Positions 27,899 to 38,065 of a stretch of 64,000 bases of DNA are shown here, one piece after another. The notes beneath the pieces are model-generated. The model saw only the letters and a list, made by a program, of their open reading frames with translations. It searched no databases and was not told the origin of the DNA. The position numbers and the translations under genes are program-made. Position 1 is the first letter of the stretch. Each line of letters opens with the position of its first letter. This stretch comes from a virus: the UHGV virus genome UHGV-1364441, one strand, 5' to 3'.

Positions 27899-28288
27899 AT
27901 GGGCTTCCCTTCTCCTGCGGCGGATTATGCAGAGAGCCGCATTTCTCTTGATCAGCAACTAATCAGACATCCTTCCGCGACCTACTTCATGCGGGCGGCA
28001 GACAGCCATCACCGTGAGGGAATATTGCAAGGTGCTTTGCTGGTGGTTGATTCCTCACTTACTCCGGTTGATGGTTCACTGCTTATATGCGCTATGGAGG
28101 GTGAATATCGCATAAAGAGATACAGGAAATATCCGCGCCAGCACCTGGAGGATTTAAGCACCGGGAAGAAAGAGGCGTTACCAGTAGATGACGATGGATG
28201 CACGGGCAGTAATGCTGTTTTTGGTGTGATCACTTATGTCATTAATGATGCCAGAAGTGGGGAGTTTGATTATAGACCTGTGATTTAA
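27899..28288 (+). CDS. humD: UmuD'-like protein (P1 HumD type, S24 LexA/UmuD fold)
   Basis: FPSPAADY ... SATYF ... LLVVDS ... EYRIKR pattern parallel to UmuD without the N-terminal cleaved tail. Confidence 0.7.
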   Translation: MGFPSPAADYAESRISLDQQLIRHPSATYFMRAADSHHREGILQGALLVVDSSLTPVDGSLLICAMEGEYRIKRYRKYPRQHLEDLSTGKKEALPVDDDGCTGSNAVFGVITYVINDARSGEFDYRPVI

Positions 28289-28333
28289 GGCGCATAAAGA
28301 AGCCCGCCAGACCAGGCGGGCTTTTTGTTGATA

Positions 28334-29428
28334 TCATTCAATGATTTTTTCGGCTGTCAGCCAGCTAATTTCATGCCTGTCTTTCGGCGGTTTTAGCATG
28401 TGAGCATATTCAGCGACATGCTCCCACGGAATTGTTTTTGCCCACTCAACGATAGCATTGTGATCTGCAGTGAAGAGTGGAATAGTGTGCGATTTCAACC
28501 ATTCTAATGTCGTGACGCCATGTTTTTTGGCGTGGTGCTGCGCATGATGCCGGGCTATCACTCGTAATGGCATTGTCCATTCACTACCATCAGGCATCGA
28601 AAAGCGCATTGTCTTCGGCATATCTGATTCAAGAACAGCCTCCCTAATACCAGGGAACTCACCAAGAATCATACGACGATAGTCATCACTATTTCGCCCG
28701 CCATACCTTTCGGCAAAATGATCAAGATATTCTTGGGTAATAAATGGTGAATCCTCCGCACTCAGCTTAATGGCTTTATATACACCACTCGTATTATCTT
28801 CAGCTAAAGCACGTCCATGATGTGAATCATAAAAAAAGCCTATTTCCTCTGGTGACGGAATTGAAGTGAGCAATATGCGTGAATCACCACTAGTCATGCT
28901 TGCCCACACAATGCTGTATGCCCGATCGCTGATATGTGCGGAATCCACAATAATGAATAAAAGATGGTCGGCGTAGTGACCTGCAATGCTATCTTCATAG
29001 TTAAGGCGGTAGTTACAAAAGCACATTCCCCAAAATTCATTGAACATCAGACCGCTATCACCGACCTTAAAATACTCAATGATAAAAGGTTGTTTTTTCA
29101 GCAATGCCTCCCAACATTGCCACACATATGCAACAATTCCTCTTTTGCAAGCATTTGATTTTGGATAAACAATTACTGTCCGGGAATCAGGATACATAAT
29201 CGTATAAAGGGTACTAATAACAGCAAGCACTTGCGGTCGTCCGATCCCATACGGAGTGGTGACAGTAGCTTTTGCATTATTGGGCTGTATAGCTTCAACA
29301 ATTTGTTGTTGCTGGTGGCTTAAATCAATATCAAACAATTCTTTTGCTGCCAGTACCCAATTGTCTTTATATTTCTCCACCAGCGACAGCCAGCGCGGAT
29401 CTTTATAAATATTGCTCTTAGTCGCCAT
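28334..29428 (-). CDS. Terminase-large-subunit paralog with degenerate ATPase motifs
   Basis: Resembles the PacB-like protein at 34728-36236 (shared FYDSHH block), but Walker A is TTPYGIGRPQV (no GKS/T) and Walker B is IIVDSAH. Confidence 0.55.
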   Translation of the reverse strand: MATKSNIYKDPRWLSLVEKYKDNWVLAAKELFDIDLSHQQQQIVEAIQPNNAKATVTTPYGIGRPQVLAVISTLYTIMYPDSRTVIVYPKSNACKRGIVAYVWQCWEALLKKQPFIIEYFKVGDSGLMFNEFWGMCFCNYRLNYEDSIAGHYADHLLFIIVDSAHISDRAYSIVWASMTSGDSRILLTSIPSPEEIGFFYDSHHGRALAEDNTSGVYKAIKLSAEDSPFITQEYLDHFAERYGGRNSDDYRRMILGEFPGIREAVLESDMPKTMRFSMPDGSEWTMPLRVIARHHAQHHAKKHGVTTLEWLKSHTIPLFTADHNAIVEWAKTIPWEHVAEYAHMLKPPKDRHEISWLTAEKIIE

Positions 29429-30185
29429 CTGCCACTTCCTTAACTTCTTCTTTGGCCTGTTCTGCAATCGCCGCACGGCATTTCGCCCTGGCTGTAGCGA
29501 TTGCTTCAGCTCGCACATCGTCTGGAATCGTTGACGTGATATACATATCCAGTTCTTCGGCACGGAATACTGTTTGGTCCAGATATTCGCGTAGCATCCA
29601 GGTAAATTCGAAATCACACGCGATAATCTCTGCGCTACCTTCTGCACCATTTGGGAAATGAATAAATGCCTGTTTAGCCAAACCGATAACACGACATGCG
29701 GTTGCCAAAACAGCGACAACCAGGTTTACATTTTCACACGCTACGGGCTGATTAACGCCGGAGATTACTCCATTTAACTGTCGGTTATATGGAAGGTAGT
29801 TTGAGATGCGTTCTACGCGCCATGTGCCAGTCAGGCTGCCATTTTTAAATATAATTGGTGTAACGGATAGCCCAAGCTCGCGTATAAGTCGTTGCGCTAT
29901 AGCAGGATCATTAAACAGGTCTAATGCTACACATTCGAAAGACTGCGCAAGGGCAAACAGTTCTTCCAGAGAGTAGTCTTTGCCCCTGGCGGTGATGTAA
30001 CGACGAACGCCGCTGTCTGCATCACTCCATATAGCTACGCCATGCTCTTCATTCAGCTCTTCATTAAAGCCGAGATACGTCATGATAGTGCGTTCAATCG
30101 TGTCAAACGGCAGTGACATGTCGGCGTTAACAGCCACCAGCAGGCCATTACGCAAGCGGTATTGAATTGTTTTAGTGCTTTCCAT
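29418..30185 (-). CDS. Hypothetical protein (255 aa)
   Basis: Stop overlaps the start of the terminase paralog. Confidence 0.5.
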   Translation of the reverse strand: MESTKTIQYRLRNGLLVAVNADMSLPFDTIERTIMTYLGFNEELNEEHGVAIWSDADSGVRRYITARGKDYSLEELFALAQSFECVALDLFNDPAIAQRLIRELGLSVTPIIFKNGSLTGTWRVERISNYLPYNRQLNGVISGVNQPVACENVNLVVAVLATACRVIGLAKQAFIHFPNGAEGSAEIIACDFEFTWMLREYLDQTVFRAEELDMYITSTIPDDVRAEAIATARAKCRAAIAEQAKEEVKEVADGD

Positions 30186-30191
30186 GTCAAA

Positions 30192-30854
30192 TCACTCCAC
30201 AACAAACCAGTCACAGGCCAGCAGGTCGCCAACTGAAGGCACCCACGGAACAACTACACCTTGTGCATTTTTTAAGGCGAAATAAGCACCATACGGAACG
30301 AGGTCGCCGGGGAAATATCCCTTAATGGCTTCCATTCGTGCCGGGTACTGTCCTTCGGGAACCAGCCAGCAGAATTGGTTTTCGCCGTTCCACCCGCGTC
30401 GAGCAACTTTCTTGCCATCCTTCAACCACATCAGCGCGTCAGAAAAGTCGGCTGCTTCAAGGTCGATTTCTTCTTGTAGAGTAGCGATACCGCCAGCAGA
30501 AATAGTTACGTCCCTGGCTGTAATGAATGTCACCCCATTGTGACCTTCAATGCTGAGCGATACCCCATTTTCGGAGGCGTCGTTAACCCGGCTATAGCAT
30601 TTTTCAAATGCTTTCTCTGGCACATAGACCAGATAACCATTTTCAGCAGTGACGAGATATCCTCCTATTTGCGGTCGGAACTTTTCCAAGAACACACCAT
30701 CAACACGAAGCGTCATTCCTTTTGGCTCCACGACTTCGATGCTGCCAAAAATGGGCGCATAAGCTTTGCCGACAATAACAATATCTTTGATTTTCGATGC
30801 CCGAATGATGCTGTGGCATTTGTATTTGGGGAACACCTGAAAAGTGCTGGCCAT
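30192..30854 (-). CDS. Protein with C-terminal DUF2829-like domain
   Basis: ALMWLKDGKKVARRGWNG ... PWVPSVGDLLACDWFVVE pattern. Confidence 0.5.
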   Translation of the reverse strand: MASTFQVFPKYKCHSIIRASKIKDIVIVGKAYAPIFGSIEVVEPKGMTLRVDGVFLEKFRPQIGGYLVTAENGYLVYVPEKAFEKCYSRVNDASENGVSLSIEGHNGVTFITARDVTISAGGIATLQEEIDLEAADFSDALMWLKDGKKVARRGWNGENQFCWLVPEGQYPARMEAIKGYFPGDLVPYGAYFALKNAQGVVVPWVPSVGDLLACDWFVVE

Positions 30855-30868
30855 AATCCTTCCTCTAC

Positions 30869-31363
30869 TTAAAACTTTGCGTACTGAAGCGGTGTACGCT
30901 TGATTTCAACGCGGCCTTCCGATGTGCTACCAAAGCCACCAGCACCACGCTCCGTTTCGTTGAGTTCCTCAACCTCGACTAGTGAGACTTGTTCAACACG
31001 CTCAAAAATTCCTTGCATGACAGCCATTCCAGGCTTGAGACAAACGCCTTCCCCGCCTGGATCAGTAATCAGTTTTGCCATGATTTCGCCGCGATAATCG
31101 GAGTCGATAATTCCTACGCAGTTAGCCAGGCGAGTATGTTTTTTGCAGCCCAATCCTGATCGCGGATAGAGTTTCAGACACCAGCCGGGCGGGATCTCCA
31201 TAGCCAGTCCGGTATACACCCACCAGCTTGAGGAAATTGCACCATTGCTATCGACGCATGGTTTTATTTCAACAGCCTCAAAATCCATCGCCGCCGATCC
31301 GGAGGTGGCATAAGCTGGAAGTTTTGCTGCCGGATGTAGGCGTTTCACTTTTACGTAAATCAT
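30869..31363 (-). CDS. dut: dUTP diphosphatase
   Basis: dUTPase motifs RSGLG, GIIDSDYRGE, GFGSTS. Confidence 0.85.
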   Translation of the reverse strand: MIYVKVKRLHPAAKLPAYATSGSAAMDFEAVEIKPCVDSNGAISSSWWVYTGLAMEIPPGWCLKLYPRSGLGCKKHTRLANCVGIIDSDYRGEIMAKLITDPGGEGVCLKPGMAVMQGIFERVEQVSLVEVEELNETERGAGGFGSTSEGRVEIKRTPLQYAKF

Positions 31364-31836
31364 TGTTTTTTAGCTCTCTGCGTGAAGGTGTAAACCCGAC
31401 GTTTGATATGTGGAACGGTAGGAACAGGAAGACAGGAACTTTCAATAACTCCTTGCTCCTCCAGCGATCGCACCGCCCGCAAGAACTGCGACGTGTCGCC
31501 GCCAAACTGGCGGGCATAGGTGCTGCCGTTATGAAGTATTTGAGCTATTACCCGAGCTTTTGTCTGGCTGTCACGATATGCGAATAGCCGCACGGCCTCT
31601 TCTGGCGCAATCGCTAACTGATAGCCTTTCCCGGCACGGTGTCGAATGAATCCATGCGCCAGTAGGTTTTTGAGTTCGTTACGAGTGCGAACAGATCCGT
31701 AATCCAGGAAGTGTGGATTGATAACGACTGGCTTAAACCATTCCGTAGGTGCTTTAGCTAATAGAGCTAACAGCTTCCCGGACAATTCTGGATAGGAAGA
31801 CGGGTAACAATTCAGAGATGGGTAATAAGTTTTCAC
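31360..31836 (-). CDS. Hypothetical protein, possible winged-helix DNA-binding
   Basis: 158-aa ORF coupled to dut. Confidence 0.45.
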   Translation of the reverse strand: MKTYYPSLNCYPSSYPELSGKLLALLAKAPTEWFKPVVINPHFLDYGSVRTRNELKNLLAHGFIRHRAGKGYQLAIAPEEAVRLFAYRDSQTKARVIAQILHNGSTYARQFGGDTSQFLRAVRSLEEQGVIESSCLPVPTVPHIKRRVYTFTQRAKKQ

Positions 31837-32177
31837 CGACGCCCCCTTGCCGGATATCGACCTGCATTAGTATCCGGTGCAATAAAGCCGGTAGTGGGGC
31901 GAGTGAAAGCGAGATTAATCTTCTCGACCATAGTGCGATAATTTTCCTGATAGTGGGCCAGGAGTTTTTCGGCGGCAATGATGGTTACTTTCCGGACGTA
32001 GCTTTCTGCTTCCTCCAGATTTCGCCAGTTTTTTTCGAGGGTAAACACAGGGACGGCCTCAAGCCCGGTCATGATGCCGAACACAACGACAGCATGACTG
32101 TTCTTAACACCAGCGGCGAAGGTTACGGTGTAACCATCCACCTTGAAGCGTCTTGATTCCGTGATTTGACTCTGCAA
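31833..32177 (-). CDS. Hypothetical protein (114 aa)
   Basis: First gene after the operator-like site at 32233-32252. Confidence 0.45.
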   Translation of the reverse strand: MQSQITESRRFKVDGYTVTFAAGVKNSHAVVVFGIMTGLEAVPVFTLEKNWRNLEEAESYVRKVTIIAAEKLLAHYQENYRTMVEKINLAFTRPTTGFIAPDTNAGRYPARGRR

Positions 32178-32232
32178 AGCACCCTCCTAAATAGGCGAGG
32201 GTACTTTACAGCAAAGGCGTTAATCTAAAAAG

Positions 32233-32252
32233 ATGTGTTAGAAATTTAATTT
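32233..32252 (+). promoter_or_regulatory. Operator-like motif ATGTGTTAGAAATTTAATTT at the 3' end of the recombinase gene
   Basis: Instance of the recurrent motif. Confidence 0.45.
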
Positions 32253-33279
32253 ACGAATCCATCAGGCGGCTATTAGCCCCCACAGACACGCCACCACGGC
32301 GAAGATACCGCATAAGTGTTTCCGGTTTCTTCCAGGTTCCTTCCTGCATGATCTCCACCATAGACACCTGCTTTTCAGCCATATCAATAGCGGCCCCGAC
32401 GCGTGCACTATGCCCGGTCCACGTCCGGTATCTTCCTTTGTTTGGCGTAGCATCTCTTTTATTCAGCAACACCCAGGCGTCGCTGAATATTTTCTCCATT
32501 GCAGGTGCAGTAAGGGGCGTTGTCGTGATCCTGGCCTTATTGCTACGGTGTATCGGCGGGAACAGCACTGCGTCAGGATGTTCGCGAAGCCCGGAAACAT
32601 CCAGCCAGTCATTCAGCACAGCGGTAGTGCGACGGGAAAGCACCTTATCAAGCCCGGCGGCGGTCGTTATTGTCTTCGTGTGTGAAATATGTAGCGTGAC
32701 AGTGTCACCTGTTTGGTCCAGATCTCCTACACGAATACGCGAGATTTCCGACATACGCATCAGCGTATTGTATGCAACAAAGAGAAAAGCCCGGTTGCGC
32801 AGATCCACCAGCCGTTCTGACCTGGACAACAGGACGTCGAGCAGTTTCAGATCGTCCCACCGCAGCGGTATAGCCTGGCCTGTTCGTTCGCCTTTTTCAG
32901 TTGCCGCTTCGCGCCGGATGCGCCGCATAGCCAGAGAAACACTTTTATCATCCGAAAGTGGCGGAAGGCCACAATGCGAAAGCAGCATGTTCAGCATGGC
33001 GTAGTGCTTATCAATGGTGGTCGAAGCCAGATCGGCATCATGCAGCTGAAGAAAATACTCGCGGGCCATTTCTGGTGAGATCGGAAACCAGGCAAGCTGG
33101 CGAGCGTGACACCAGCGCGCCCAGGAATGAAACACCAAACGGAGGTCGCGCAGAGTATTCGGCGCATAAGCTCCCTGGTCATTCATGAACCGCATAAAGT
33201 TTTCTGCGGCTTCCTGGTACTCTTTGCCAATGTTGCGCAGAAAACCACCGGAACTGCCAGAGATAATTAATTCACTCAT
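32251..33279 (-). CDS. dre: Cre-family tyrosine recombinase, Dre-like
   Basis: 342 aa, colinear with P1 Cre (WFP, LSxxGLP, VSLxMRRIR, YNTL, WxGHSARVGAA, EIMQ blocks); adjacent rox-like site. Confidence 0.85.
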   Translation of the reverse strand: MSELIISGSSGGFLRNIGKEYQEAAENFMRFMNDQGAYAPNTLRDLRLVFHSWARWCHARQLAWFPISPEMAREYFLQLHDADLASTTIDKHYAMLNMLLSHCGLPPLSDDKSVSLAMRRIRREAATEKGERTGQAIPLRWDDLKLLDVLLSRSERLVDLRNRAFLFVAYNTLMRMSEISRIRVGDLDQTGDTVTLHISHTKTITTAAGLDKVLSRRTTAVLNDWLDVSGLREHPDAVLFPPIHRSNKARITTTPLTAPAMEKIFSDAWVLLNKRDATPNKGRYRTWTGHSARVGAAIDMAEKQVSMVEIMQEGTWKKPETLMRYLRRGGVSVGANSRLMDS

Positions 33280-33431
33280 GAAACTATTTAACCTCTATAT
33301 ACAGATGACGCTACGCGAAAAATATAAAAATGACAGGGTAGCTATAAGTTAATTTTCAAGATTCAAGCCTTTGATTCGAGGCACGTATTTTCAGTGATGT
33401 CAATACTGATCATCTACCCATGATTATAGCC

Positions 33432-33463
33432 TAACTTTAAATAATGCCAATTATCTAAAGTTA
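33432..33463. other. rox-like recombination site TAACTTTAAATAAT-GCCA-ATTATCTAAAGTTA
   Basis: 14-bp inverted arms (1 mismatch) around a 4-bp spacer, about 150 bp upstream of the recombinase start; 31/32 identical to the rox site as I recall it. Confidence 0.75.
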
Positions 33464-33634
33464 GAAATTTAGGAATTTTTTTTCTTTCCGCGCAGATGGG
33501 CAATGCATTGCTGGTGTGGGCTTTAAGTTATGCCTGGCAGTTTTTAAGCAGAATTTTCTAAATTGGATGATAAAAAAATGCATCTTGATCCTTTACTCAC
33601 CCTGTTATTCGGCATAGATTTGTCATAGTAATTT

Positions 33635-33652
33635 TATGTTAGAAAACTAAAT
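33635..33652 (+). promoter_or_regulatory. Operator-like motif TATGTTAGAAAACTAAAT about 15 bp upstream of the 33665 start
   Basis: Instance of the recurrent motif. Confidence 0.45.
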
Positions 33653-33664
33653 CGAGTAGGAATA

Positions 33665-34702
33665 ATGAGTAAGAAGTCGATCGAGAAAGAGTACAAACGG
33701 TTCCTGCAAACCGCTGAACGGTGGAAAGAGCTGGTGGTCGCAAACTCTGTTTTCCATGATACCAGTTATTCCGGCGAGGAATTCCGCCATGTTGCACTAA
33801 CACATGATCAGAATGTGCTAGAAGAAGCTGAAAAGTGCCTCACAGAATGGAAAGCCTTTGTTGACTTGTGCCGTAACGCTGACGGCAAAGCGTCTAACAT
33901 TGTTGAGTCTGTATATTCTCCGATCCCATTCATTATCGAGGACACAAATCAAAGCACGCATATTGTTGTGCAAAGCGCGACCACCACCCGCTCATTTACG
34001 CGCGAAAATCTGCTCAAAAAATATGATGCAATTATAAAGAAAAGCCTGAAAAACAAGATATTTTCGCAGATTGTTGGTGCACTTGAAGAAGAGCGCCGTT
34101 TTTTCGCATCAGAACCTGAAGGGGAAGTTTACCGGGCGCGCAAAGATGGATACACAGATGTAGTGCTTACAACAAACATTGAAGGCAGCAATGCTCTGTC
34201 ACGATTCAGGGTAGGCGCACACGGAGCCTTAGTGTTCGCAAAACTTCCGAACACCACAGTGCCCGTTGTTAATAATGTCGGCGAACGTCGCAGCATTACT
34301 ATTTATTCTGGGGTTGAGTCGATACCTTGCGGCCTGCTTGGTGACTTTAGTCTCTATCGCGTTCGCGATCTGGAGAAACACCAACCAAGCTATGTTGCGA
34401 AGTCATACATCTTGCGAAACATCGACATCCGCAATGAGAGCTTAAAGAACAAATCAGCCAAAATGCTTGAGGAAGCCGATCCGGCTATTCGCCATATCAT
34501 TGAGCGTAAAATACAGACAGCACGCGAAGCGATGGCGCGACTGAATAAAATGGATCTGGAGTTGTTAGACGTAATGATGACATCCGGAGATGACCTGACA
34601 GGCATAAAACTGACAGACGCGCGGAAAAGATACGGTAAAACCATAGAAGAACGTTACGGGTTCACTTTCTCCCAAACACAGCACGCCGCTAAACTCTGGT
34701 AA
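33665..34702 (+). CDS. Hypothetical protein; candidate C1-like master repressor (by position only)
   Basis: Sits between the rox site and pacB, convergent with pacB, as c1 does in P1; operator-like motif just upstream; no sequence-level assignment made. Confidence 0.4.
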   Translation: MSKKSIEKEYKRFLQTAERWKELVVANSVFHDTSYSGEEFRHVALTHDQNVLEEAEKCLTEWKAFVDLCRNADGKASNIVESVYSPIPFIIEDTNQSTHIVVQSATTTRSFTRENLLKKYDAIIKKSLKNKIFSQIVGALEEERRFFASEPEGEVYRARKDGYTDVVLTTNIEGSNALSRFRVGAHGALVFAKLPNTTVPVVNNVGERRSITIYSGVESIPCGLLGDFSLYRVRDLEKHQPSYVAKSYILRNIDIRNESLKNKSAKMLEEADPAIRHIIERKIQTAREAMARLNKMDLELLDVMMTSGDDLTGIKLTDARKRYGKTIEERYGFTFSQTQHAAKLW

Positions 34703-34727
34703 TCATAAGCCCCGCATTGCCGGGGCT

Positions 34728-36236
34728 TTATATATCCAGATCTGGCATTTCCACATCTGCAAGAACCTGATCGCGGAAGGTAGCCATTTCAGCGCCGATA
34801 TCTTCATTAGCAGGAACATAGTCCACCAGCATTGTAAAGCAGTAGGTATCCCATCGGTCAGGTGATTTGATGTTCAGCTTTTGCCGCATGTGCTCCTTGC
34901 GCATCATCGCCATCTTCCCTTCTTCATTAAGTAAAAAGGGGATTTTTGACGCTTGCTCTGCCGTTTTAGGGTCACTGTCTATTCGCATACGACCTGACTT
35001 TATGGCATCACGAGCCATAATATTTGCGTAGGCACGCTGGTTAACAAAACGCTCCTTGTCTTTGTTCGAAAACATGGGTTTCCCCCACCGAATCCGTACC
35101 GGATTAGCCCCACGGCGCACCAGCTGCGCACAGGTATCTGAACCAAAACCGTCTGCGTCAACCGCGATTGTAATATTCGGGTATTTATCCGGCGTGCATT
35201 CGTTGTATATAAAGTCAGCAAAAGCCAGCGGGTCCATAGTCCCTGGCATTTCCATTACCTTAAAGTTAACAACACGCCGCTTTTCCCGGTGACCAGACAC
35301 TTTACAGATATTAAGAACTGACTTGTCTCGCCCGTTACCAACGTCAGCAGTAGCCACCCATCCCCAGTTTTTCTCCAACAACACCTTGCGCCGCGCAGCG
35401 CGATCGCATTCATCACGACCAAGCAAATAGCCGTTAATCTCCCGAGGAAACTGACCAAGAACCTTGACCATGTACTCAATAGAATCGCGCCCGCCATATT
35501 CCAGGAGTTTCTGCCTGATGAATTGTGGTGTGACGAACGGTGATTCTTCTGAGTTAAGAACAATTGCTGTCCAGATCCCTTTCGGGTTGTCTGGGGTTTT
35601 AGCTTGAGAATGGTGCGAATCGTAGAAATAACCACTTGGCCTTGTTGGCTGGGATAGCATCAACATTCGGTTATCTTCTTCAGTCAGAGCGCCAGTCATT
35701 ACGCCGATCGCTTTATCAGATATACCTGATGCTTCATCCAGAATTAGAAGCAAATGTGCCGCGTGCTCCCCCGCCAGAGCTTCTTCGTTACCGAGTCGAT
35801 AGCCTTTGCAGAGAACTTCCCAGATCCCCTTTCGAGAGCGTTCATAAAACATGGTGTCAGACAGGACAAAATAGGTCTGTAACCACCCATGACGCTTAAC
35901 GGCATTCGCCCAATACTGTTTAACGTATTTAAATACACCTGTCTTAACCTGACCTATTTTGTTAGCAACAATGATGACACGGGCATCGGGGAACAGAATC
36001 AAATAAATCAGCAACAACATAGCCGTTAGCGACGATTTCCCTGTACCGTGACCAGAGGTAACAGTGGTTCTGCTCCCTTTTTGCTGTACGGACTGGATAA
36101 TCTCCTGCTGCTGGTGGGAGGGAAACATCCCGAATATATCAACAACAGCCTGGGTAAAGTTGTAGCGGTATTTGATTACCATATCGCGCCAGCGTGGATC
36201 GCTGGTGACGCATTTAATCTTGCGCCCACCAGCCAT
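34728..36236 (-). CDS. pacB: Terminase large subunit (PacB-like)
   Basis: Walker A TSGHGTGKSS and Walker B LLILDEASGI; 502 aa; coupled to upstream small-subunit-like gene. Confidence 0.7.
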   Translation of the reverse strand: MAGGRKIKCVTSDPRWRDMVIKYRYNFTQAVVDIFGMFPSHQQQEIIQSVQQKGSRTTVTSGHGTGKSSLTAMLLLIYLILFPDARVIIVANKIGQVKTGVFKYVKQYWANAVKRHGWLQTYFVLSDTMFYERSRKGIWEVLCKGYRLGNEEALAGEHAAHLLLILDEASGISDKAIGVMTGALTEEDNRMLMLSQPTRPSGYFYDSHHSQAKTPDNPKGIWTAIVLNSEESPFVTPQFIRQKLLEYGGRDSIEYMVKVLGQFPREINGYLLGRDECDRAARRKVLLEKNWGWVATADVGNGRDKSVLNICKVSGHREKRRVVNFKVMEMPGTMDPLAFADFIYNECTPDKYPNITIAVDADGFGSDTCAQLVRRGANPVRIRWGKPMFSNKDKERFVNQRAYANIMARDAIKSGRMRIDSDPKTAEQASKIPFLLNEEGKMAMMRKEHMRQKLNIKSPDRWDTYCFTMLVDYVPANEDIGAEMATFRDQVLADVEMPDLDI

Positions 36237-37600
36237 TAGTCATCCTCCGGCGGTTCTATCGCAATATCATCATCTCCGGCGTCATACCCTGCATCTGATG
36301 CATCATAATCACCGTAAATTTCAGCCGTTGCCGAAGGGTCAATGTCCAACTCTTCATCGTTGGCCTCGAATTCCCCAGCCTTACGCTCGCCATTGTGGTC
36401 GTAATCTCCGCACCCCAGATCTTCAACAATGGTTGCCACATCCGCCCGGCGCTCTGCCAGCCATTGCGGATGGTTAGCCTGAAGCGATGCAAACTCCTTC
36501 GCTTCTTTGTCCAGCTGTTCATCATCAACATCATTGATGTCAGAAACTGGAGGTTCGAGAAGAGTGATAGCTTTCGCCGCGCGCGCCGCGAGGATAGCCG
36601 GGACACTGACACCCTGACGCTCGATGTATTCAGCAACACCGATATCGTCCAGCTCCTCGCGCTCACGCATACGTATAGCGGCGGCGATAACTCTGGCTGC
36701 GCGTGCGTCAGCGCCAATGCGATATTCAATCTCTTTGCCACGCTGTTCGGCCTGTAGGCGTGCTAATTCGAGTTTTTCTCTGGCCTCGGCCTCTCTGAAT
36801 GCTTGCTGGCGAGCACCCTGACGAAGTTTTTCATCACCCTGTCGCAGCTTTTGTTCGGACTGATATATCGCTGCCAACCTACTGATAAAATCGTTCATGT
36901 AGTAGGCCGCGTCACTGATTAGACCGAGAAGTCGCTGCCCAGGGTGCATTCCTTCTGGCTGTTCATCACCCAGGGCGTCTATCTCCGCCTGTAGGCGTTC
37001 GGCCTCCTGATCAACAATGCTTTGGTACTGAAGTGCGCGTTCTTGCGCCATTTGAATTGCTAACCGCAGGTGCTCTTCTGCGCCGTTCTTCATCATGTCG
37101 CGAGCCACACTCGTAGTGGGCAACGTGGCACGCTGCACAGCACCGCCAGGGATCATTGCTGAAGATCCCTCGATTTTTGAGGCGCATTTATCTTCGGTGG
37201 GGATCATTTTCGCCATTTTTTCGCGCAATGATCTCCTGACAGATTCTTTTATCTCATTGTTATTATTTGCATTATTTTCATGATCCGAAGTTTTCTTTCT
37301 CGGCATACTTCGGAAAGAACCTGTGCCCTGTGAATTGTCAATTTCTGTAAATTTTGTTGTTTCTGTACCCTCTTCTGGTCTTTTTTTTGCTCTTCCTGCC
37401 CGTTTTTTTTGAGGTGATTTGGTGCTTTTTTTTGTAGTCTTCACCTGCGACCGCACCTCATTTTTTTTCATATTGAGATGCTTTCTGGCGGTATTGAAGC
37501 TAAGGTCGTGTTGCTCGCAGTATTCCTTTACGGTGATCCCTTTTTCTTCACGCAACGCTATAAATTTGGCGCGGTGCTCTTCCCAATTAACCAGACTCAT
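36236..37600 (-). CDS. pacA: Terminase small subunit / pac-recognition protein (PacA-like)
   Basis: N-terminal HTH (ITVKEYCEQHDLSFNTARKHL), acidic C-terminus, immediately upstream of pacB-like gene. Confidence 0.55.
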   Translation of the reverse strand: MSLVNWEEHRAKFIALREEKGITVKEYCEQHDLSFNTARKHLNMKKNEVRSQVKTTKKSTKSPQKKRAGRAKKRPEEGTETTKFTEIDNSQGTGSFRSMPRKKTSDHENNANNNNEIKESVRRSLREKMAKMIPTEDKCASKIEGSSAMIPGGAVQRATLPTTSVARDMMKNGAEEHLRLAIQMAQERALQYQSIVDQEAERLQAEIDALGDEQPEGMHPGQRLLGLISDAAYYMNDFISRLAAIYQSEQKLRQGDEKLRQGARQQAFREAEAREKLELARLQAEQRGKEIEYRIGADARAARVIAAAIRMREREELDDIGVAEYIERQGVSVPAILAARAAKAITLLEPPVSDINDVDDEQLDKEAKEFASLQANHPQWLAERRADVATIVEDLGCGDYDHNGERKAGEFEANDEELDIDPSATAEIYGDYDASDAGYDAGDDDIAIEPPEDD

Positions 37601-37989
37601 AAAGCAACACCACGCTTTTTAACGGCGGCATTCCACAGCTTATTCGCCATGTCCACCAGCTCTCGTTGCTCTTTTCGCGCCTGTTCGACTGATTTCCTGC
37701 TACAGTTTTTAACCAGTAAGCTACCGTATTCAGGGGTGCGCCCGCGCACCTTGAACTGATATCCGTTCAGGCCATGCAACCAGTATTTCCGTGGGTAAAC
37801 ACGATCATCAAGCTCACAAATAGCTCGGCTTGACCGCACAAAATGCCGAATGATGTTGGTTACACTTACTCGTGAAACATGAAGGTGAGGATATTTTTCT
37901 TTAGCTAGAGTGGTGATTTCGGTGACTGTCAGATAGCAGTCAGCCCTAATCATGATATCCGCAATTTCTGCGCTGCTGATATGCTCCAT
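37597..37989 (-). CDS. Hypothetical protein (130 aa)
   Basis: ATGA-coupled to the pacA-like gene. Confidence 0.45.
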   Translation of the reverse strand: MEHISSAEIADIMIRADCYLTVTEITTLAKEKYPHLHVSRVSVTNIIRHFVRSSRAICELDDRVYPRKYWLHGLNGYQFKVRGRTPEYGSLLVKNCSRKSVEQARKEQRELVDMANKLWNAAVKKRGVAL

Positions 37990-38065
37990 TAATCCCCCAG
38001 GCAGGAAATGACCGAGGGGATGATAATGAGAATGTTATTTCTGTATAGACTGGCAAAAAGTTGGT

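What the first reader, a model, noticed from the sequence alone, without database searches (positions are those of the whole stretch)
28334..31363. Second terminase-large-like gene with degenerate ATPase motifs in a dUTPase/DUF2829 operon
Besides the PacA/PacB-like pair at 34728-37600 there is a 365-aa paralog that resembles the PacB-like protein but has lost the Walker A lysine (TTPYGIGRPQV versus TSGHGTGKSS) and the Walker B acidic pair (IIVDSAH versus LDEASGI). It is translationally coupled downstream of dut, a winged-helix-like ORF, a DUF2829-domain protein and a 255-aa protein. A catalytically dead terminase-like protein could retain DNA-end or nuclease functions, or be a repurposed module.
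Basis: seen in the sequence. Interest (0 to 1): 0.6.

Follow-up and report, generated by a model that had tools for sequence, protein, structure and literature searches.

The report
Dead terminase copy in phage-plasmid
A P1/D6-type phage-plasmid of E. coli carries, besides its real DNA-packaging enzyme, a conserved second copy that has lost every ATP-site residue and the DNA-cutting domain and gained an unrelated small domain, so it can only act by binding something, possibly as a mimic of the terminase in phage-host conflict.

Summary
Window 28334..29428 (-) encodes a 364-aa protein. Its first ~260 residues are a true homologue of the element's own PacB ATPase domain (37% identity, E 6e-61), and the model has a terminase large subunit (TerL) ATPase fold at pLDDT 90.7.

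All five alleles found have lost the residues that 12 real PacB-clade terminases conserve at the nucleotide site (Walker A Ser-Gly and Lys, Gln96, His158, Walker B Asp, Ser170, Thr198). Non-catalytic motifs such as GxFYDSHH and LGEFP are kept. The nuclease domain is absent. It is replaced by a ~100-aa domain unrelated to PacB that usually occurs as a standalone early-operon phage protein with no Pfam family.

The gene is under purifying selection (dN/dS 0.07-0.41) and overlaps the stop codon of an IsaA homologue. It is present in 163 of 749 PacB-bearing plasmids, and is absent from reference P1 and D6. Its ATPase-like half is swapped as divergent alleles independently of the resident PacB. It is the last gene of an operon with dut and a Tad2-like (DUF2829) gene.

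It is not a terminase. My best guess (about 0.3) is a binding-only terminase mimic used in conflict with terminase-sensing immunity. Packaging interference is the main rival. Closest precedent: T4 vs.8 and Ksap1/2.

The parts
28334..29428 (-). CDS of the 364-aa PacB-derived pseudo-terminase (stop codon 28334-28336)
   Evidence: ORF and sequence. 37% identity to the window's PacB, E 6e-61. 98% identical to the 364-aa P0001, a cluster of 392 member sequences. AlphaFold2 model pLDDT 90.7. Top Foldseek PDB hits are TerL ATPase domains.
28646..29428 (-). N-terminal TerL-ATPase-like domain (aa 1-261), catalytically degenerate; the hypervariable, recombining half of the gene
   Evidence: Aligns with PacB residues 10-264. 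Only 53% aa / 62% nt identity to L018, against 97% / 96% for the C-terminal domain. dN/dS 0.07-0.41.
29237..29257 (-). Remnant of Walker A (aa 58-64, TPYGIGR; PacB has SGHGTGK)
   Evidence: Alignments. S61, G62 and K67 of PacB are invariant in 12 real TerLs and replaced in all 5 paralogue alleles.
28937..28957 (-). Remnant of Walker B (aa 158-164, FIIVDSA; PacB has LILDEAS)
   Evidence: Walker B Asp becomes V/T/A/M/I. The catalytic-Glu position carries D/E/E/D/N.
28337..28645 (-). C-terminal ~100-aa domain of unknown function (MPDGSxW...PLF...WA...W motif family), replacing the nuclease domain
   Evidence: phrog_17928 C-terminal part, E 4.7e-13. 196 representative clusters in the HMMER scan. 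At least 1196 clusters in the profile search, mostly standalone ~100-aa proteins. No Pfam family. No relation to PacB.
29418..30185 (-). IsaA homologue (255 aa), immediately upstream; its stop codon overlaps the paralogue's start
   Evidence: 48% identity to P1 IsaA and to the IsaA of P1 variants. phrog_2326 E 9.7e-134. The same isaA-paralogue adjacency is found at a different genomic site in P1-type elements.
30192..30854 (-). Tad2-like (DUF2829) domain protein, 220 aa, same operon
   Evidence: PF11195 Tad2-like, E 1.6e-22, residues 136-219.
30869..31363 (-). dUTPase gene, same operon
   Evidence: PF00692 E 1.7e-14; phrog_135.
31360..32177 (-). Two overlapping ORFs of unknown function (158 aa and 114 aa), same operon
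   Evidence: phrog_6669 and phrog_1968, both of unknown function. Conserved in D6 and relatives.
32251..33279 (-). Cre-like tyrosine recombinase (Dre type), first gene of the operon
   Evidence: Matches D6 dre.
33423..33464 (-). Best sigma70-like promoter (TTGGCA-16-TATAAT), overlapping a rox-like inverted repeat; likely start of the operon
   Evidence: Consensus match only; not shown to be functional.
28299..28322 (-). Intrinsic-terminator-like hairpin directly after the paralogue's stop codon; likely end of the operon
34728..37600 (-). The element's real pacase genes pacB (34728-36236) and pacA (36236-37600), used as the reference
   Evidence: 92.5% nt identity to annotated D6 pacA/pacB. PacB has intact GHGTGKS and LILDEA motifs.

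Best explanation
Shown here:
- The gene encodes a non-enzymatic derivative of the PacB large terminase. It keeps the TerL ATPase fold and several non-catalytic family motifs.
- Every conserved nucleotide-site residue has been replaced in all alleles.
- The nuclease domain is gone, replaced by an unrelated ~100-aa early-gene domain.
- It is a selected, dispensable accessory gene. It travels with isaA and is the last gene of the dre-dut-Tad2-like operon.
- Its ATPase-like half is exchanged as divergent alleles, independently of the resident terminase.

Inferred:
- It works by binding only, as a structural mimic of the terminase ATPase domain, in a genetic conflict rather than in the element's own packaging.
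- The partner I favour is host immunity that senses large terminases (Avs1-3 or Upx type). The protein would act either as a non-activating decoy or as a shield that pairs with monomeric PacB.
- Loss of the ATP site would make the mimic invisible to sensors that read the ATP-loaded active site.

The descriptive part has a confidence of about 0.9. The stated mechanism has a confidence of about 0.3.
For: Homology and fold:
- BLASTP to PacB, E 6e-61.
- Confident model (pLDDT 90.7) matching TerL ATPase domains, including the Avs3-bound PhiV-1 terminase, and viral TerLs.

Selective loss of the catalytic centre:
- S61, G62, K67, Q96, H158, D167, S170 and T198 are replaced in all 5 alleles.
- G64, G66, G156, P197, GxFYDSHH and LGEFP are kept.

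No nuclease domain.

Selection: dN/dS 0.07-0.41, with intact ORFs down to 47% identity.

Accessory status:
- 163 of 749 PacB-bearing PLSDB records have it, always alongside a second, PacB-type match.
- It is absent from D6 and from reference P1.

Not tracking its own terminase:
- L018 and L009 have 100% identical PacB and 99% identical IsaA, but only 76% identical N-domains.
- dS is 0.34 in the N-domain against 0.06 in the flanks, which indicates allele replacement.

Neighbourhood:
- A Tad2-like/DUF2829 gene sits in the same operon. Tad2 is a Thoeris anti-defence sponge (bioRxiv 10.1101/2023.05.01.538930, abstract as listed).
- An orphan N6/N4 methyltransferase takes the dut slot in Enterobacter relatives.
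- In P1-type elements the cassette lies between the C1-controlled ssb and the hxr-ddrA-darA genes that follow it (annotated antirestriction in the P1 table).

Precedent:
- Non-terminase proteins with a terminase-ATPase-like structure (Ksap1, Ksap2, T4 vs.8) bind or are modelled in the Avs2 pocket, and an anti-defence role has been proposed for them.
- EcAvs2 contacts the terminase-bound ATP through a bridging ATP (PMC13601566).
- Avs sensors appear to target monomers (PMC13581612).
Against: - There is no direct evidence for any partner.
- No TerL-mimic inhibitor of Avs or Upx turned up in the literature searched.
- The known TerL-like proteins activate Avs2 rather than block it.
- A protein lacking the ATP site may simply not bind these sensors.
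- The operon's best promoter overlaps rox, and no repressor operator was found, so expression timing is unknown.
- Pseudoenzymes commonly regulate their active paralogue, which favours the packaging rival.
- The C-terminal domain's own contexts (DnaB, NinB, ERF, DUF1351) point to DNA replication or recombination rather than immunity.
- Guilt by association with Tad2-like and dut is weak evidence.
Confidence: 0.3

Rival explanations
1. Packaging-directed pseudo-subunit. The dead ATPase domain still binds PacA, PacB or the portal. It either brakes pac cleavage by the resident pacase (a safety catch for a plasmid prophage whose pac site lies inside pacA) or poisons the pacase of superinfecting P1/D6-type rivals.
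For: - Its closest homologue is the PacB family, and the paralogues branch as sister to the P1/D6 PacB clade.
- The N-terminal helical arm (aa 8-50) and the invariant GxFYDSHH and LGEFP motifs are retained, so some terminase interaction surfaces are probably intact.
- General knowledge: pseudoenzymes often regulate their active paralogues.
- Several alleles circulate in one host species alongside several PacB types, which would fit rival-specific poisoning.
Against: - It is dispensable: reference P1 and D6 package without it.
- isaA knock-down in P1 has no plating phenotype (PMC10695390).
- N-domain alleles change while the resident PacB is 100% identical.
- The gene is not in the late pac operon. 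In P1, pacAB have a late promoter, whereas the P1-type cassette follows the C1-controlled early ssb.
Confidence: 0.25
2. DNA-end, recombination or replication accessory. The C-terminal small domain targets the protein to replication or recombination machinery or to DNA ends, and the dead terminase domain grips DNA. This would help cyclisation or protect incoming linear DNA, in the same operon as the Dre recombinase.
For: - Standalone copies of the C-terminal domain sit one to three genes downstream of DnaB-type helicase genes in lambdoid prophages and in JK004-like phage-plasmids.
- Other copies sit in early-left operons with YfdP and DUF2303, and fusions to DUF1351 plus a coiled coil occur next to ERF.
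- In P1-type elements the cassette follows ssb.
- In D6-type elements it ends the recombinase operon.
Against: - These early regions are generic dumping grounds for accessory genes, so the context is not specific.
- No DNA-binding motif or fold was identified for the domain.
- Hypervariable allele swapping of the N-domain is not expected of a housekeeping DNA-handling factor.
Confidence: 0.13
3. Prophage-encoded defence pair. IsaA plus the pseudo-terminase form a two-gene system in which the terminase-like protein senses or traps a component of an invading phage and IsaA acts as effector.
For: - The isaA-paralogue adjacency, with overlapping stop and start codons, is conserved at two different genomic sites.
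- Both sites are known variable regions of P1-like plasmids (PMC6906374 and PMC9603915).
- The promoter upstream of dre could be active in the lysogen.
- Allelic diversification also fits a sensor.
Against: - No PADLOC match for any operon protein.
- IsaA occurs without the paralogue in about two thirds of IsaA-bearing plasmids (465 against 163 records).
- The P1-type cassette appears to lie in a C1-repressed early operon.
Confidence: 0.12
4. Decaying duplicate of pacB with no function.
For: The catalytic motifs and the nuclease domain are lost. The gene is absent from many relatives.
Against: - The ORF is intact in alleles down to 47% identity.
- dN/dS is 0.07-0.41.
- Loss is confined to catalytic residues while other motifs are invariant.
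- A foreign domain has been acquired and kept.
- The largest cluster has 851 member sequences.
Confidence: 0.03

Closest known systems
PacB, the large terminase (pacase B subunit) of phages P1 and D6
   Same: Homologous ATPase domain: 32-37% identity over about 260 aa. It shares the N-terminal helical arm and the GxFYDSHH and LGEFP motifs, and has the same TerL fold.
   Different: It has no Walker A Lys, no Walker B Asp, and none of the conserved Gln96, His158, Ser170 or Thr198. It has no nuclease domain and carries a foreign C-terminal domain. It is not adjacent to pacA, it is dispensable, and it evolves much faster than PacB.
T4 vs.8 (an uncharacterised paralogue of the gp17 ATPase domain that activates EcAvs2; Evans et al. 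2026, PMC13601566)
   Same: It is a phage-encoded, nuclease-less copy of the phage's own large-terminase ATPase domain, encoded outside the packaging operon, with unknown function.
   Different: There is no detectable sequence similarity (BLASTP E above 8), so the duplications were independent. vs.8 keeps Walker A (GGRQSGKS) and Walker B (IIDE). vs.8 has 219 aa and no added domain.
Ksap1 and Ksap2 (small phage proteins that trigger KpAvs2; PMC11564622, PMC13601566)
   Same: They are lineage-restricted, dispensable phage proteins with terminase-ATPase-like secondary structure. They engage a terminase sensor, and an anti-defence origin has been proposed for them.
   Different: Ksap1 has 74 aa and Ksap2 is also described as small. 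Neither is an evident terminase homologue by sequence. Whether the protein studied here binds Avs2 at all is unknown.
phrog_17928 / standalone 'MPDGSxW' ~100-aa early-gene proteins (uncharacterised)
   Same: The C-terminal 100 aa belong to this family: 30-39% identity, with profile E-values down to 1e-14 for single proteins.
   Different: Here the domain is fused behind a dead terminase ATPase domain. The only other such fusion found has the opposite domain order (P0040). No family member has a known function.

Membership tests
Large terminase subunit (TerL / PacB) | ASCE P-loop ATPase fold of the terminase type | tested here: met
   AlphaFold2 model pLDDT 90.7. The top Foldseek PDB hits are TerL ATPase domains of P74-26, Sf6, T4, D6E and HK97, E 4e-7 to 1e-5. 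BFVD hits are all TerLs.
Large terminase subunit (TerL / PacB) | Walker A motif with the catalytic Lys (PacB SGHGTGKS) | tested here: not met
   The protein has TPYGIGRP. The Lys position carries R/Q/Q/H/E in the five alleles, and the Ser-Gly is replaced by Thr-Pro in all of them.
Large terminase subunit (TerL / PacB) | Walker B hhhhDE (Mg-binding Asp plus catalytic Glu) | tested here: not met
   The Asp becomes V/T/A/M/I in all alleles. The Glu position carries D/E/E/D/N.
Large terminase subunit (TerL / PacB) | C-terminal RNase H-like nuclease domain | tested here: not met
   The alignment with PacB ends at residue 260. The remaining 100 aa have hhalign probability 0.1% against PacB-clade TerLs. 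They model as a beta-hairpin, three helices and two short strands.
Large terminase subunit (TerL / PacB) | Encoded next to the small terminase gene in the packaging or late module | tested here: not met
   It lies 5.3 kb from pacA-pacB, as the last gene of the dre-dut-Tad2-like-isaA operon. In P1-type elements it lies between ssb-isaA and hxr.
T4 vs.8-type terminase-ATPase paralogues | Sequence homology to vs.8, and conserved Walker A/B motifs | tested here: not met
   BLASTP against T4 vs.8 gives E above 8. vs.8 has GKS and IIDE; this protein has neither.
T4 vs.8-type terminase-ATPase paralogues | Nuclease-less paralogue of the phage's own TerL ATPase domain, encoded outside the packaging operon | tested here: met
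   This shows analogy of kind, not common descent.
Avs2-stimulating proteins (Ksap1, Ksap2, vs.8) | Binds and activates an Avs2 sensor | not testable with these tools
   This needs a co-expression toxicity assay or multimer modelling.
phrog_17928-type small domain (C-terminal 100 aa) | Profile match across the conserved MPDGSxW...PLF...DWA..W..V core | tested here: met
   phrog_17928 E 4.7e-13. phmmer hits to 196 representative clusters. The alignment shows shared invariant Pro, Phe and Trp columns.
Known anti-phage defence systems (PADLOC-DB 2.0) | Match to any defence-system protein model | tested here: not met
   No family matched at E up to 0.01 for the paralogue, IsaA or the other operon proteins.
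IsaA family (upstream partner, phrog_2326) | Full-length homology to P1 IsaA | tested here: met
   48% identity over 88% of the query to P1 isaA. 48% identity, E 2e-90, to the IsaA of a P1 variant.

The most novel reading that the evidence does not exclude
The protein is a natural ligand-mimic antagonist of terminase-sensing immune receptors (Avs1-3 or Upx). As a dead, nuclease-less copy of the terminase ATPase domain, it would either occupy the sensor without allowing activation or pair with monomeric PacB to hide it. Systematic loss of the ATP site would be a stealth adaptation against sensors that read the ATP-loaded active site. It would be the first anti-defence protein built from the very pattern the immune receptor recognises.
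Probability: 0.15. Interest if true: 0.85.

Novelty: new variant of a known kind. Interest (0 to 1): 0.5.

Why it matters
Large terminases are now known to be a principal molecular pattern sensed by bacterial NLR-like immunity. Nuclease-less terminase-ATPase look-alikes (vs.8, Ksap1/2) have just emerged as unexplained players in that sensing.

This family is a clean natural case. It is a selected, catalytically dead terminase copy fused to a very widespread but uncharacterised early-gene domain. It sits beside a Tad2-like gene in the best-studied phage-plasmid lineage, and natural presence/absence variants and several alleles are already sequenced.

That makes it straightforward to test whether such mimics are anti-defence, exclusion or packaging-control factors. 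It would also give a first handle on the ~100-aa domain family (at least 1196 clusters).

There are two practical points. These genes are sometimes annotated as 'terminase large subunit', which is wrong. And reference P1 lacks a cassette that about a fifth of its relatives carry.

Tried and rejected
- Pfam, NCBIfam and PADLOC scans of the paralogue and IsaA gave no family.
- PDB sequence searches with the paralogue, IsaA, the small-domain profile and the IsaA profile gave nothing below E 0.2.
- A Pfam scan of 23 small-domain members at E up to 1 gave only noise.
- I tested whether the C-terminal domain is a shrunken nuclease domain. hhalign probability was 0.1%, so I rejected this.
- I tested whether P1 IsaB is a remnant of the paralogue. 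There is no similarity, and the DNA alignment shows replacement rather than a simple IS1 insertion.
- A search for P1-type C1 operators in the window found 0 matches at up to 3 mismatches, so expression timing in D6-type elements stays open.
- I searched for full-length relatives of the reverse-order fusion P0040. IMG/VR returned only standalone small domains, and the GTDB genome scan returned nothing.
- BLASTP against T4 vs.8 showed no similarity.
- The structure libraries could not be queried with the C-terminal domain alone, so its fold remains unclassified.
Full report
**What the window is.** The region is a D6-type member of the P1 family of E. coli phage-plasmids. Window 31055-37998 is 92.5% identical to the D6 fragment carrying dre, c1, pacB and pacA, and flanking parts match P1-like phages. 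The real pacase genes are pacB (34728..36236 -) and pacA (36236..37600 -). PacB has an intact Walker A (SGHGTGKS) and Walker B (LILDEA).

**The observation.**
- The ORF at 28334..29428 (-) encodes 364 aa.
- Residues 8-260 align with PacB residues 10-264 at 37% identity, E 6e-61, so the resemblance is homology and not chance.
- The ATG overlaps the stop codon of the upstream 255-aa ORF by 11 nt and is preceded by AAGGAAG.
- On the minus strand the genes run dre(cre-like) - 114 aa - 158 aa - dut - Tad2-like/DUF2829 - 255 aa - paralogue. They are separated by 4-nt overlaps or gaps of 6-14 nt, apart from a 73-nt gap after dre.
- The best sigma70-like promoter lies upstream of dre, and a terminator-like hairpin follows the paralogue directly. 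These seven genes therefore look like one operon. This is inferred from sequence, not shown.

**Anatomy of the protein.** An AlphaFold2 model built on 57 sequences is confident (pLDDT 90.7, pTM 0.87). Its best matches among solved structures are terminase large subunit (TerL) ATPase domains from P74-26, Sf6, T4 gp17, D6E, HK97 and the Avs3-bound PhiV-1 terminase. Among viral models the matches are again TerLs.

I aligned 12 real PacB-clade terminases with the five paralogue alleles and listed the columns that are at least 83% conserved in the real enzymes.
- Replaced in all five paralogue alleles: S61, G62, K67 (Walker A), Q96, H158, D167 (Walker B Asp), S170 and T198.
- Catalytic Glu position: D/E/E/D/N.
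- Retained: G64, G66, G156, P197, the invariant GxFYDSHH block, G249, Y255 and LGEFP.

The decay is therefore confined to the nucleotide-hydrolysis centre, and the rest of the domain is maintained.

The alignment with PacB stops at residue ~260, so there is no nuclease domain. The last ~100 residues show no profile similarity to PacB-clade terminases (hhalign probability 0.1%).

**The C-terminal domain.**
- A full HMMER scan of 1.84 billion representative proteins with residues 258-364 found 196 clusters at E up to 0.001. Nearly all are standalone proteins of about 100 aa.
- A profile search found at least 1196 clusters, all 'hypothetical' and without a Pfam domain.
- PHROGs places the domain at the C-terminus of phrog_17928.
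- The conserved core reads MPDGSxWxVP...IA..RA..YA...T.PLF....I.DWA.NNM.W.DV...A....DY..GW.NG.
- Standalone copies lie in early accessory regions: one to three genes downstream of DnaB-type helicase genes and before NinB in lambdoid prophages; after a DnaB-like gene in JK004-type phage-plasmids; and in early-left operons with YfdP and DUF2303.
- Longer proteins carry the domain behind DUF1351 plus a coiled coil, once three genes from ERF.
- One protein, P0040, has the opposite order: small domain, then a PacB-like N-domain that also lacks the Walker A Lys (GSGTGTTT). It is cut off by a Tn3-family transposase gene. No full-length relative was found.

Two independent fusions of the same two modules suggest that they work together.

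**Distribution and partner.**
- The family is narrow. Alleles of 98%, 64-65% and 51% identity all come from Escherichia phage-plasmids.
- In PLSDB, 749 plasmids have a PacB-type match. 163 of them also have a full-length paralogue, which always occurs as a second locus.
- The upstream 255-aa protein is an IsaA homologue.
- In P1-type elements (MH422554, MH445380, vB_EcoM-813R1 and about 120 plasmids) the same pair, isaA followed by the overlapping paralogue, sits at a different site, between ssb and the hxr-ddrA-darA genes.
- Reference P1 lacks the paralogue. Homology to the P1 variants stops at the isaA stop codon and resumes near hxr, with a terminator-like hairpin, IS1 and isaB in between. 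IsaB is unrelated to the paralogue.
- D6 itself also lacks it and has pdcA-doc-phd there.
- IsaA is found in 465 plasmids, so about one third of IsaA-bearing elements carry the paralogue.
- Klebsiella and Enterobacter relatives keep the operon up to IsaA without the paralogue. In Enterobacter, dut is replaced by an N6/N4 methyltransferase.
- The isaA-IS1-isaB site is a recognised variable region of P1-like plasmids (PMC6906374, PMC9603915). isaA knock-down in P1 gives no plating defect (PMC10695390).

**Evolution.**
- All pairwise dN/dS values are below 1: 0.07 and 0.15 for the closest pair, 0.20-0.41 for N-domains of more distant pairs, and 0.06-0.25 for the C-domain among D6-type alleles (0.52 for the one P1-type pair).
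- ORFs are intact down to 47% identity. The gene is not a decaying duplicate.
- The gene is mosaic. Between the window and L018/L009 the N-domain is 51-53% (aa) and 61-62% (nt) identical, while the C-domain is 95-97% identical at both levels. The switch falls at the domain boundary near 28650.
- L018 and L009 have 100% identical PacB and 99% identical IsaA. Their paralogue N-domains are only 76% identical, with dS 0.34 against 0.06 in the flanks. The ATPase-like half is therefore replaced by recombination from a pool of divergent alleles and does not track the resident terminase.
- The neighbouring Tad2-like gene behaves the same way: 62% aa identity between the window and L019, with flanks at 97-100%.
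- A neighbour-joining tree of N-domains puts all paralogues, including the P0040 fragment, in one clade that is sister to P1 and D6 PacB. P1 and D6 PacB are 59% identical to each other. There is no bootstrap and the branches are long, so this is tentative.

**What it most likely does.**

Shown:
- It cannot be a terminase. It has no ATP site, no nuclease domain, the wrong operon, and it is dispensable.
- It is selected.
- It keeps the terminase ATPase fold and some non-catalytic motifs.
- It is an accessory, recombining cassette among cargo that includes a Tad2-like gene.

Inferred: it acts by binding, as a mimic of the terminase ATPase domain. I favour, at about 0.3, a role in the conflict over terminase sensing.
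- Avs1-3 and Upx recognise the large terminase. EcAvs2 is activated by the ATPase domain alone and contacts the terminase-bound ATP through a bridging ATP (PMC13601566).
- Avs sensors appear to bind monomers (PMC13581612).
- Three non-terminase proteins with terminase-ATPase-like structure (Ksap1, Ksap2, T4 vs.8) engage Avs2, and an anti-defence origin has been suggested for them.
- A dead copy could act as a non-activating decoy or could cap monomeric PacB. Losing the ATP site would also keep the copy itself from being sensed.

This is a hypothesis. No partner has been shown, and no such inhibitor turned up in the literature searched.

Rivals:
- A packaging-directed pseudo-subunit that brakes the resident pacase or poisons that of rival P1-type phages (0.25).
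- A DNA-end, recombination or replication helper, suggested by the contexts of the small domain (0.13).
- A functionless relic (0.03).

**Comparison with what is known.**
- By membership test it fails four of the five defining features of a large terminase.
- It is analogous to, but not homologous with, T4 vs.8. BLASTP gives E above 8, and vs.8 keeps GKS and IIDE.
- GenBank annotations call it 'hypothetical protein' or, wrongly, 'terminase large subunit'.
- I found no paper describing it.
- I rate it a new variant of a known kind, namely nuclease-less terminase-ATPase paralogues of phages. It differs by complete loss of the catalytic centre, fusion to a widespread uncharacterised domain, and coupling to isaA.
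- Interest is moderate (0.5). The description is solid and the system is easy to test. The function is unproven, and the general phenomenon has a recent precedent.

Noticed in passing
window 33423-33464: A rox-like inverted repeat (CTAACTTTAAATAAT / ATTATCTAAAGTTAG, 4-nt spacer) overlaps the best sigma70-like promoter of the dre operon (TTGGCA-16-TATAAT). The -35 hexamer spans the rox spacer, so the Dre recombinase might autoregulate the operon.
   Followed up: partly
window 30192-30854: The Tad2-like (DUF2829) gene is itself a swapped allele. It is 62% aa identical to its counterpart in plasmid NZ_CP076307 (L019), while the flanking genes are 97-100% identical. It also carries an extra N-terminal ~110-aa part outside the Pfam domain.
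   Followed up: partly
window ~28290 (between the paralogue's terminator and humD at 27899-28288): The phd-doc addiction module (~670 nt) sits here in close relatives (L018, L009, L019) and is absent from this element. D6 has pdcA-doc-phd in place of the paralogue.
   Followed up: partly
L003 (NC_005856 20500-25500) versus L001 (MH422554): Reference phage P1 is the derived state at the isaA site. The paralogue present in many P1-type elements is replaced by a terminator-like hairpin, IS1 and isaB. IsaB is unrelated to the paralogue.
   Followed up: yes
L010:8001-8741: A single protein (P0040) has the reverse domain order: the small 'MPDGSxW' domain followed by a PacB-like N-domain that also lacks the Walker A Lys (GSGTGTTT). 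It is truncated by a Tn3-family transposase gene. It lies near AbiH and RecA-dependent-nuclease genes.
   Followed up: partly
L026:1095-2477, L027:6001-7521: The same small domain ends long DUF1351 / coiled-coil proteins (phrog_17928) in early operons, next to ERF or to YfdP and DUF2303. This family is large (at least 1196 clusters) and wholly uncharacterised.
   Followed up: partly
whole window; c1-like gene at 33665-34702 (+): The P1 C1 operator consensus ATTGCTCTAATAAATTT does not occur anywhere in the window at up to 3 mismatches. A 345-aa C1-type repressor is nevertheless present (its counterparts in related loci carry PF27008 in the precomputed tables; my Pfam copy had no match). D6-type operators must differ.
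   Followed up: no
L007/L008 (Enterobacter hormaechei phage-plasmid contigs): In these relatives the dut slot of the operon is occupied by an N6/N4 DNA methyltransferase, and an extra 169-aa gene sits between the Tad2-like gene and isaA. The operon behaves as a slot array for accessory cargo.
   Followed up: no
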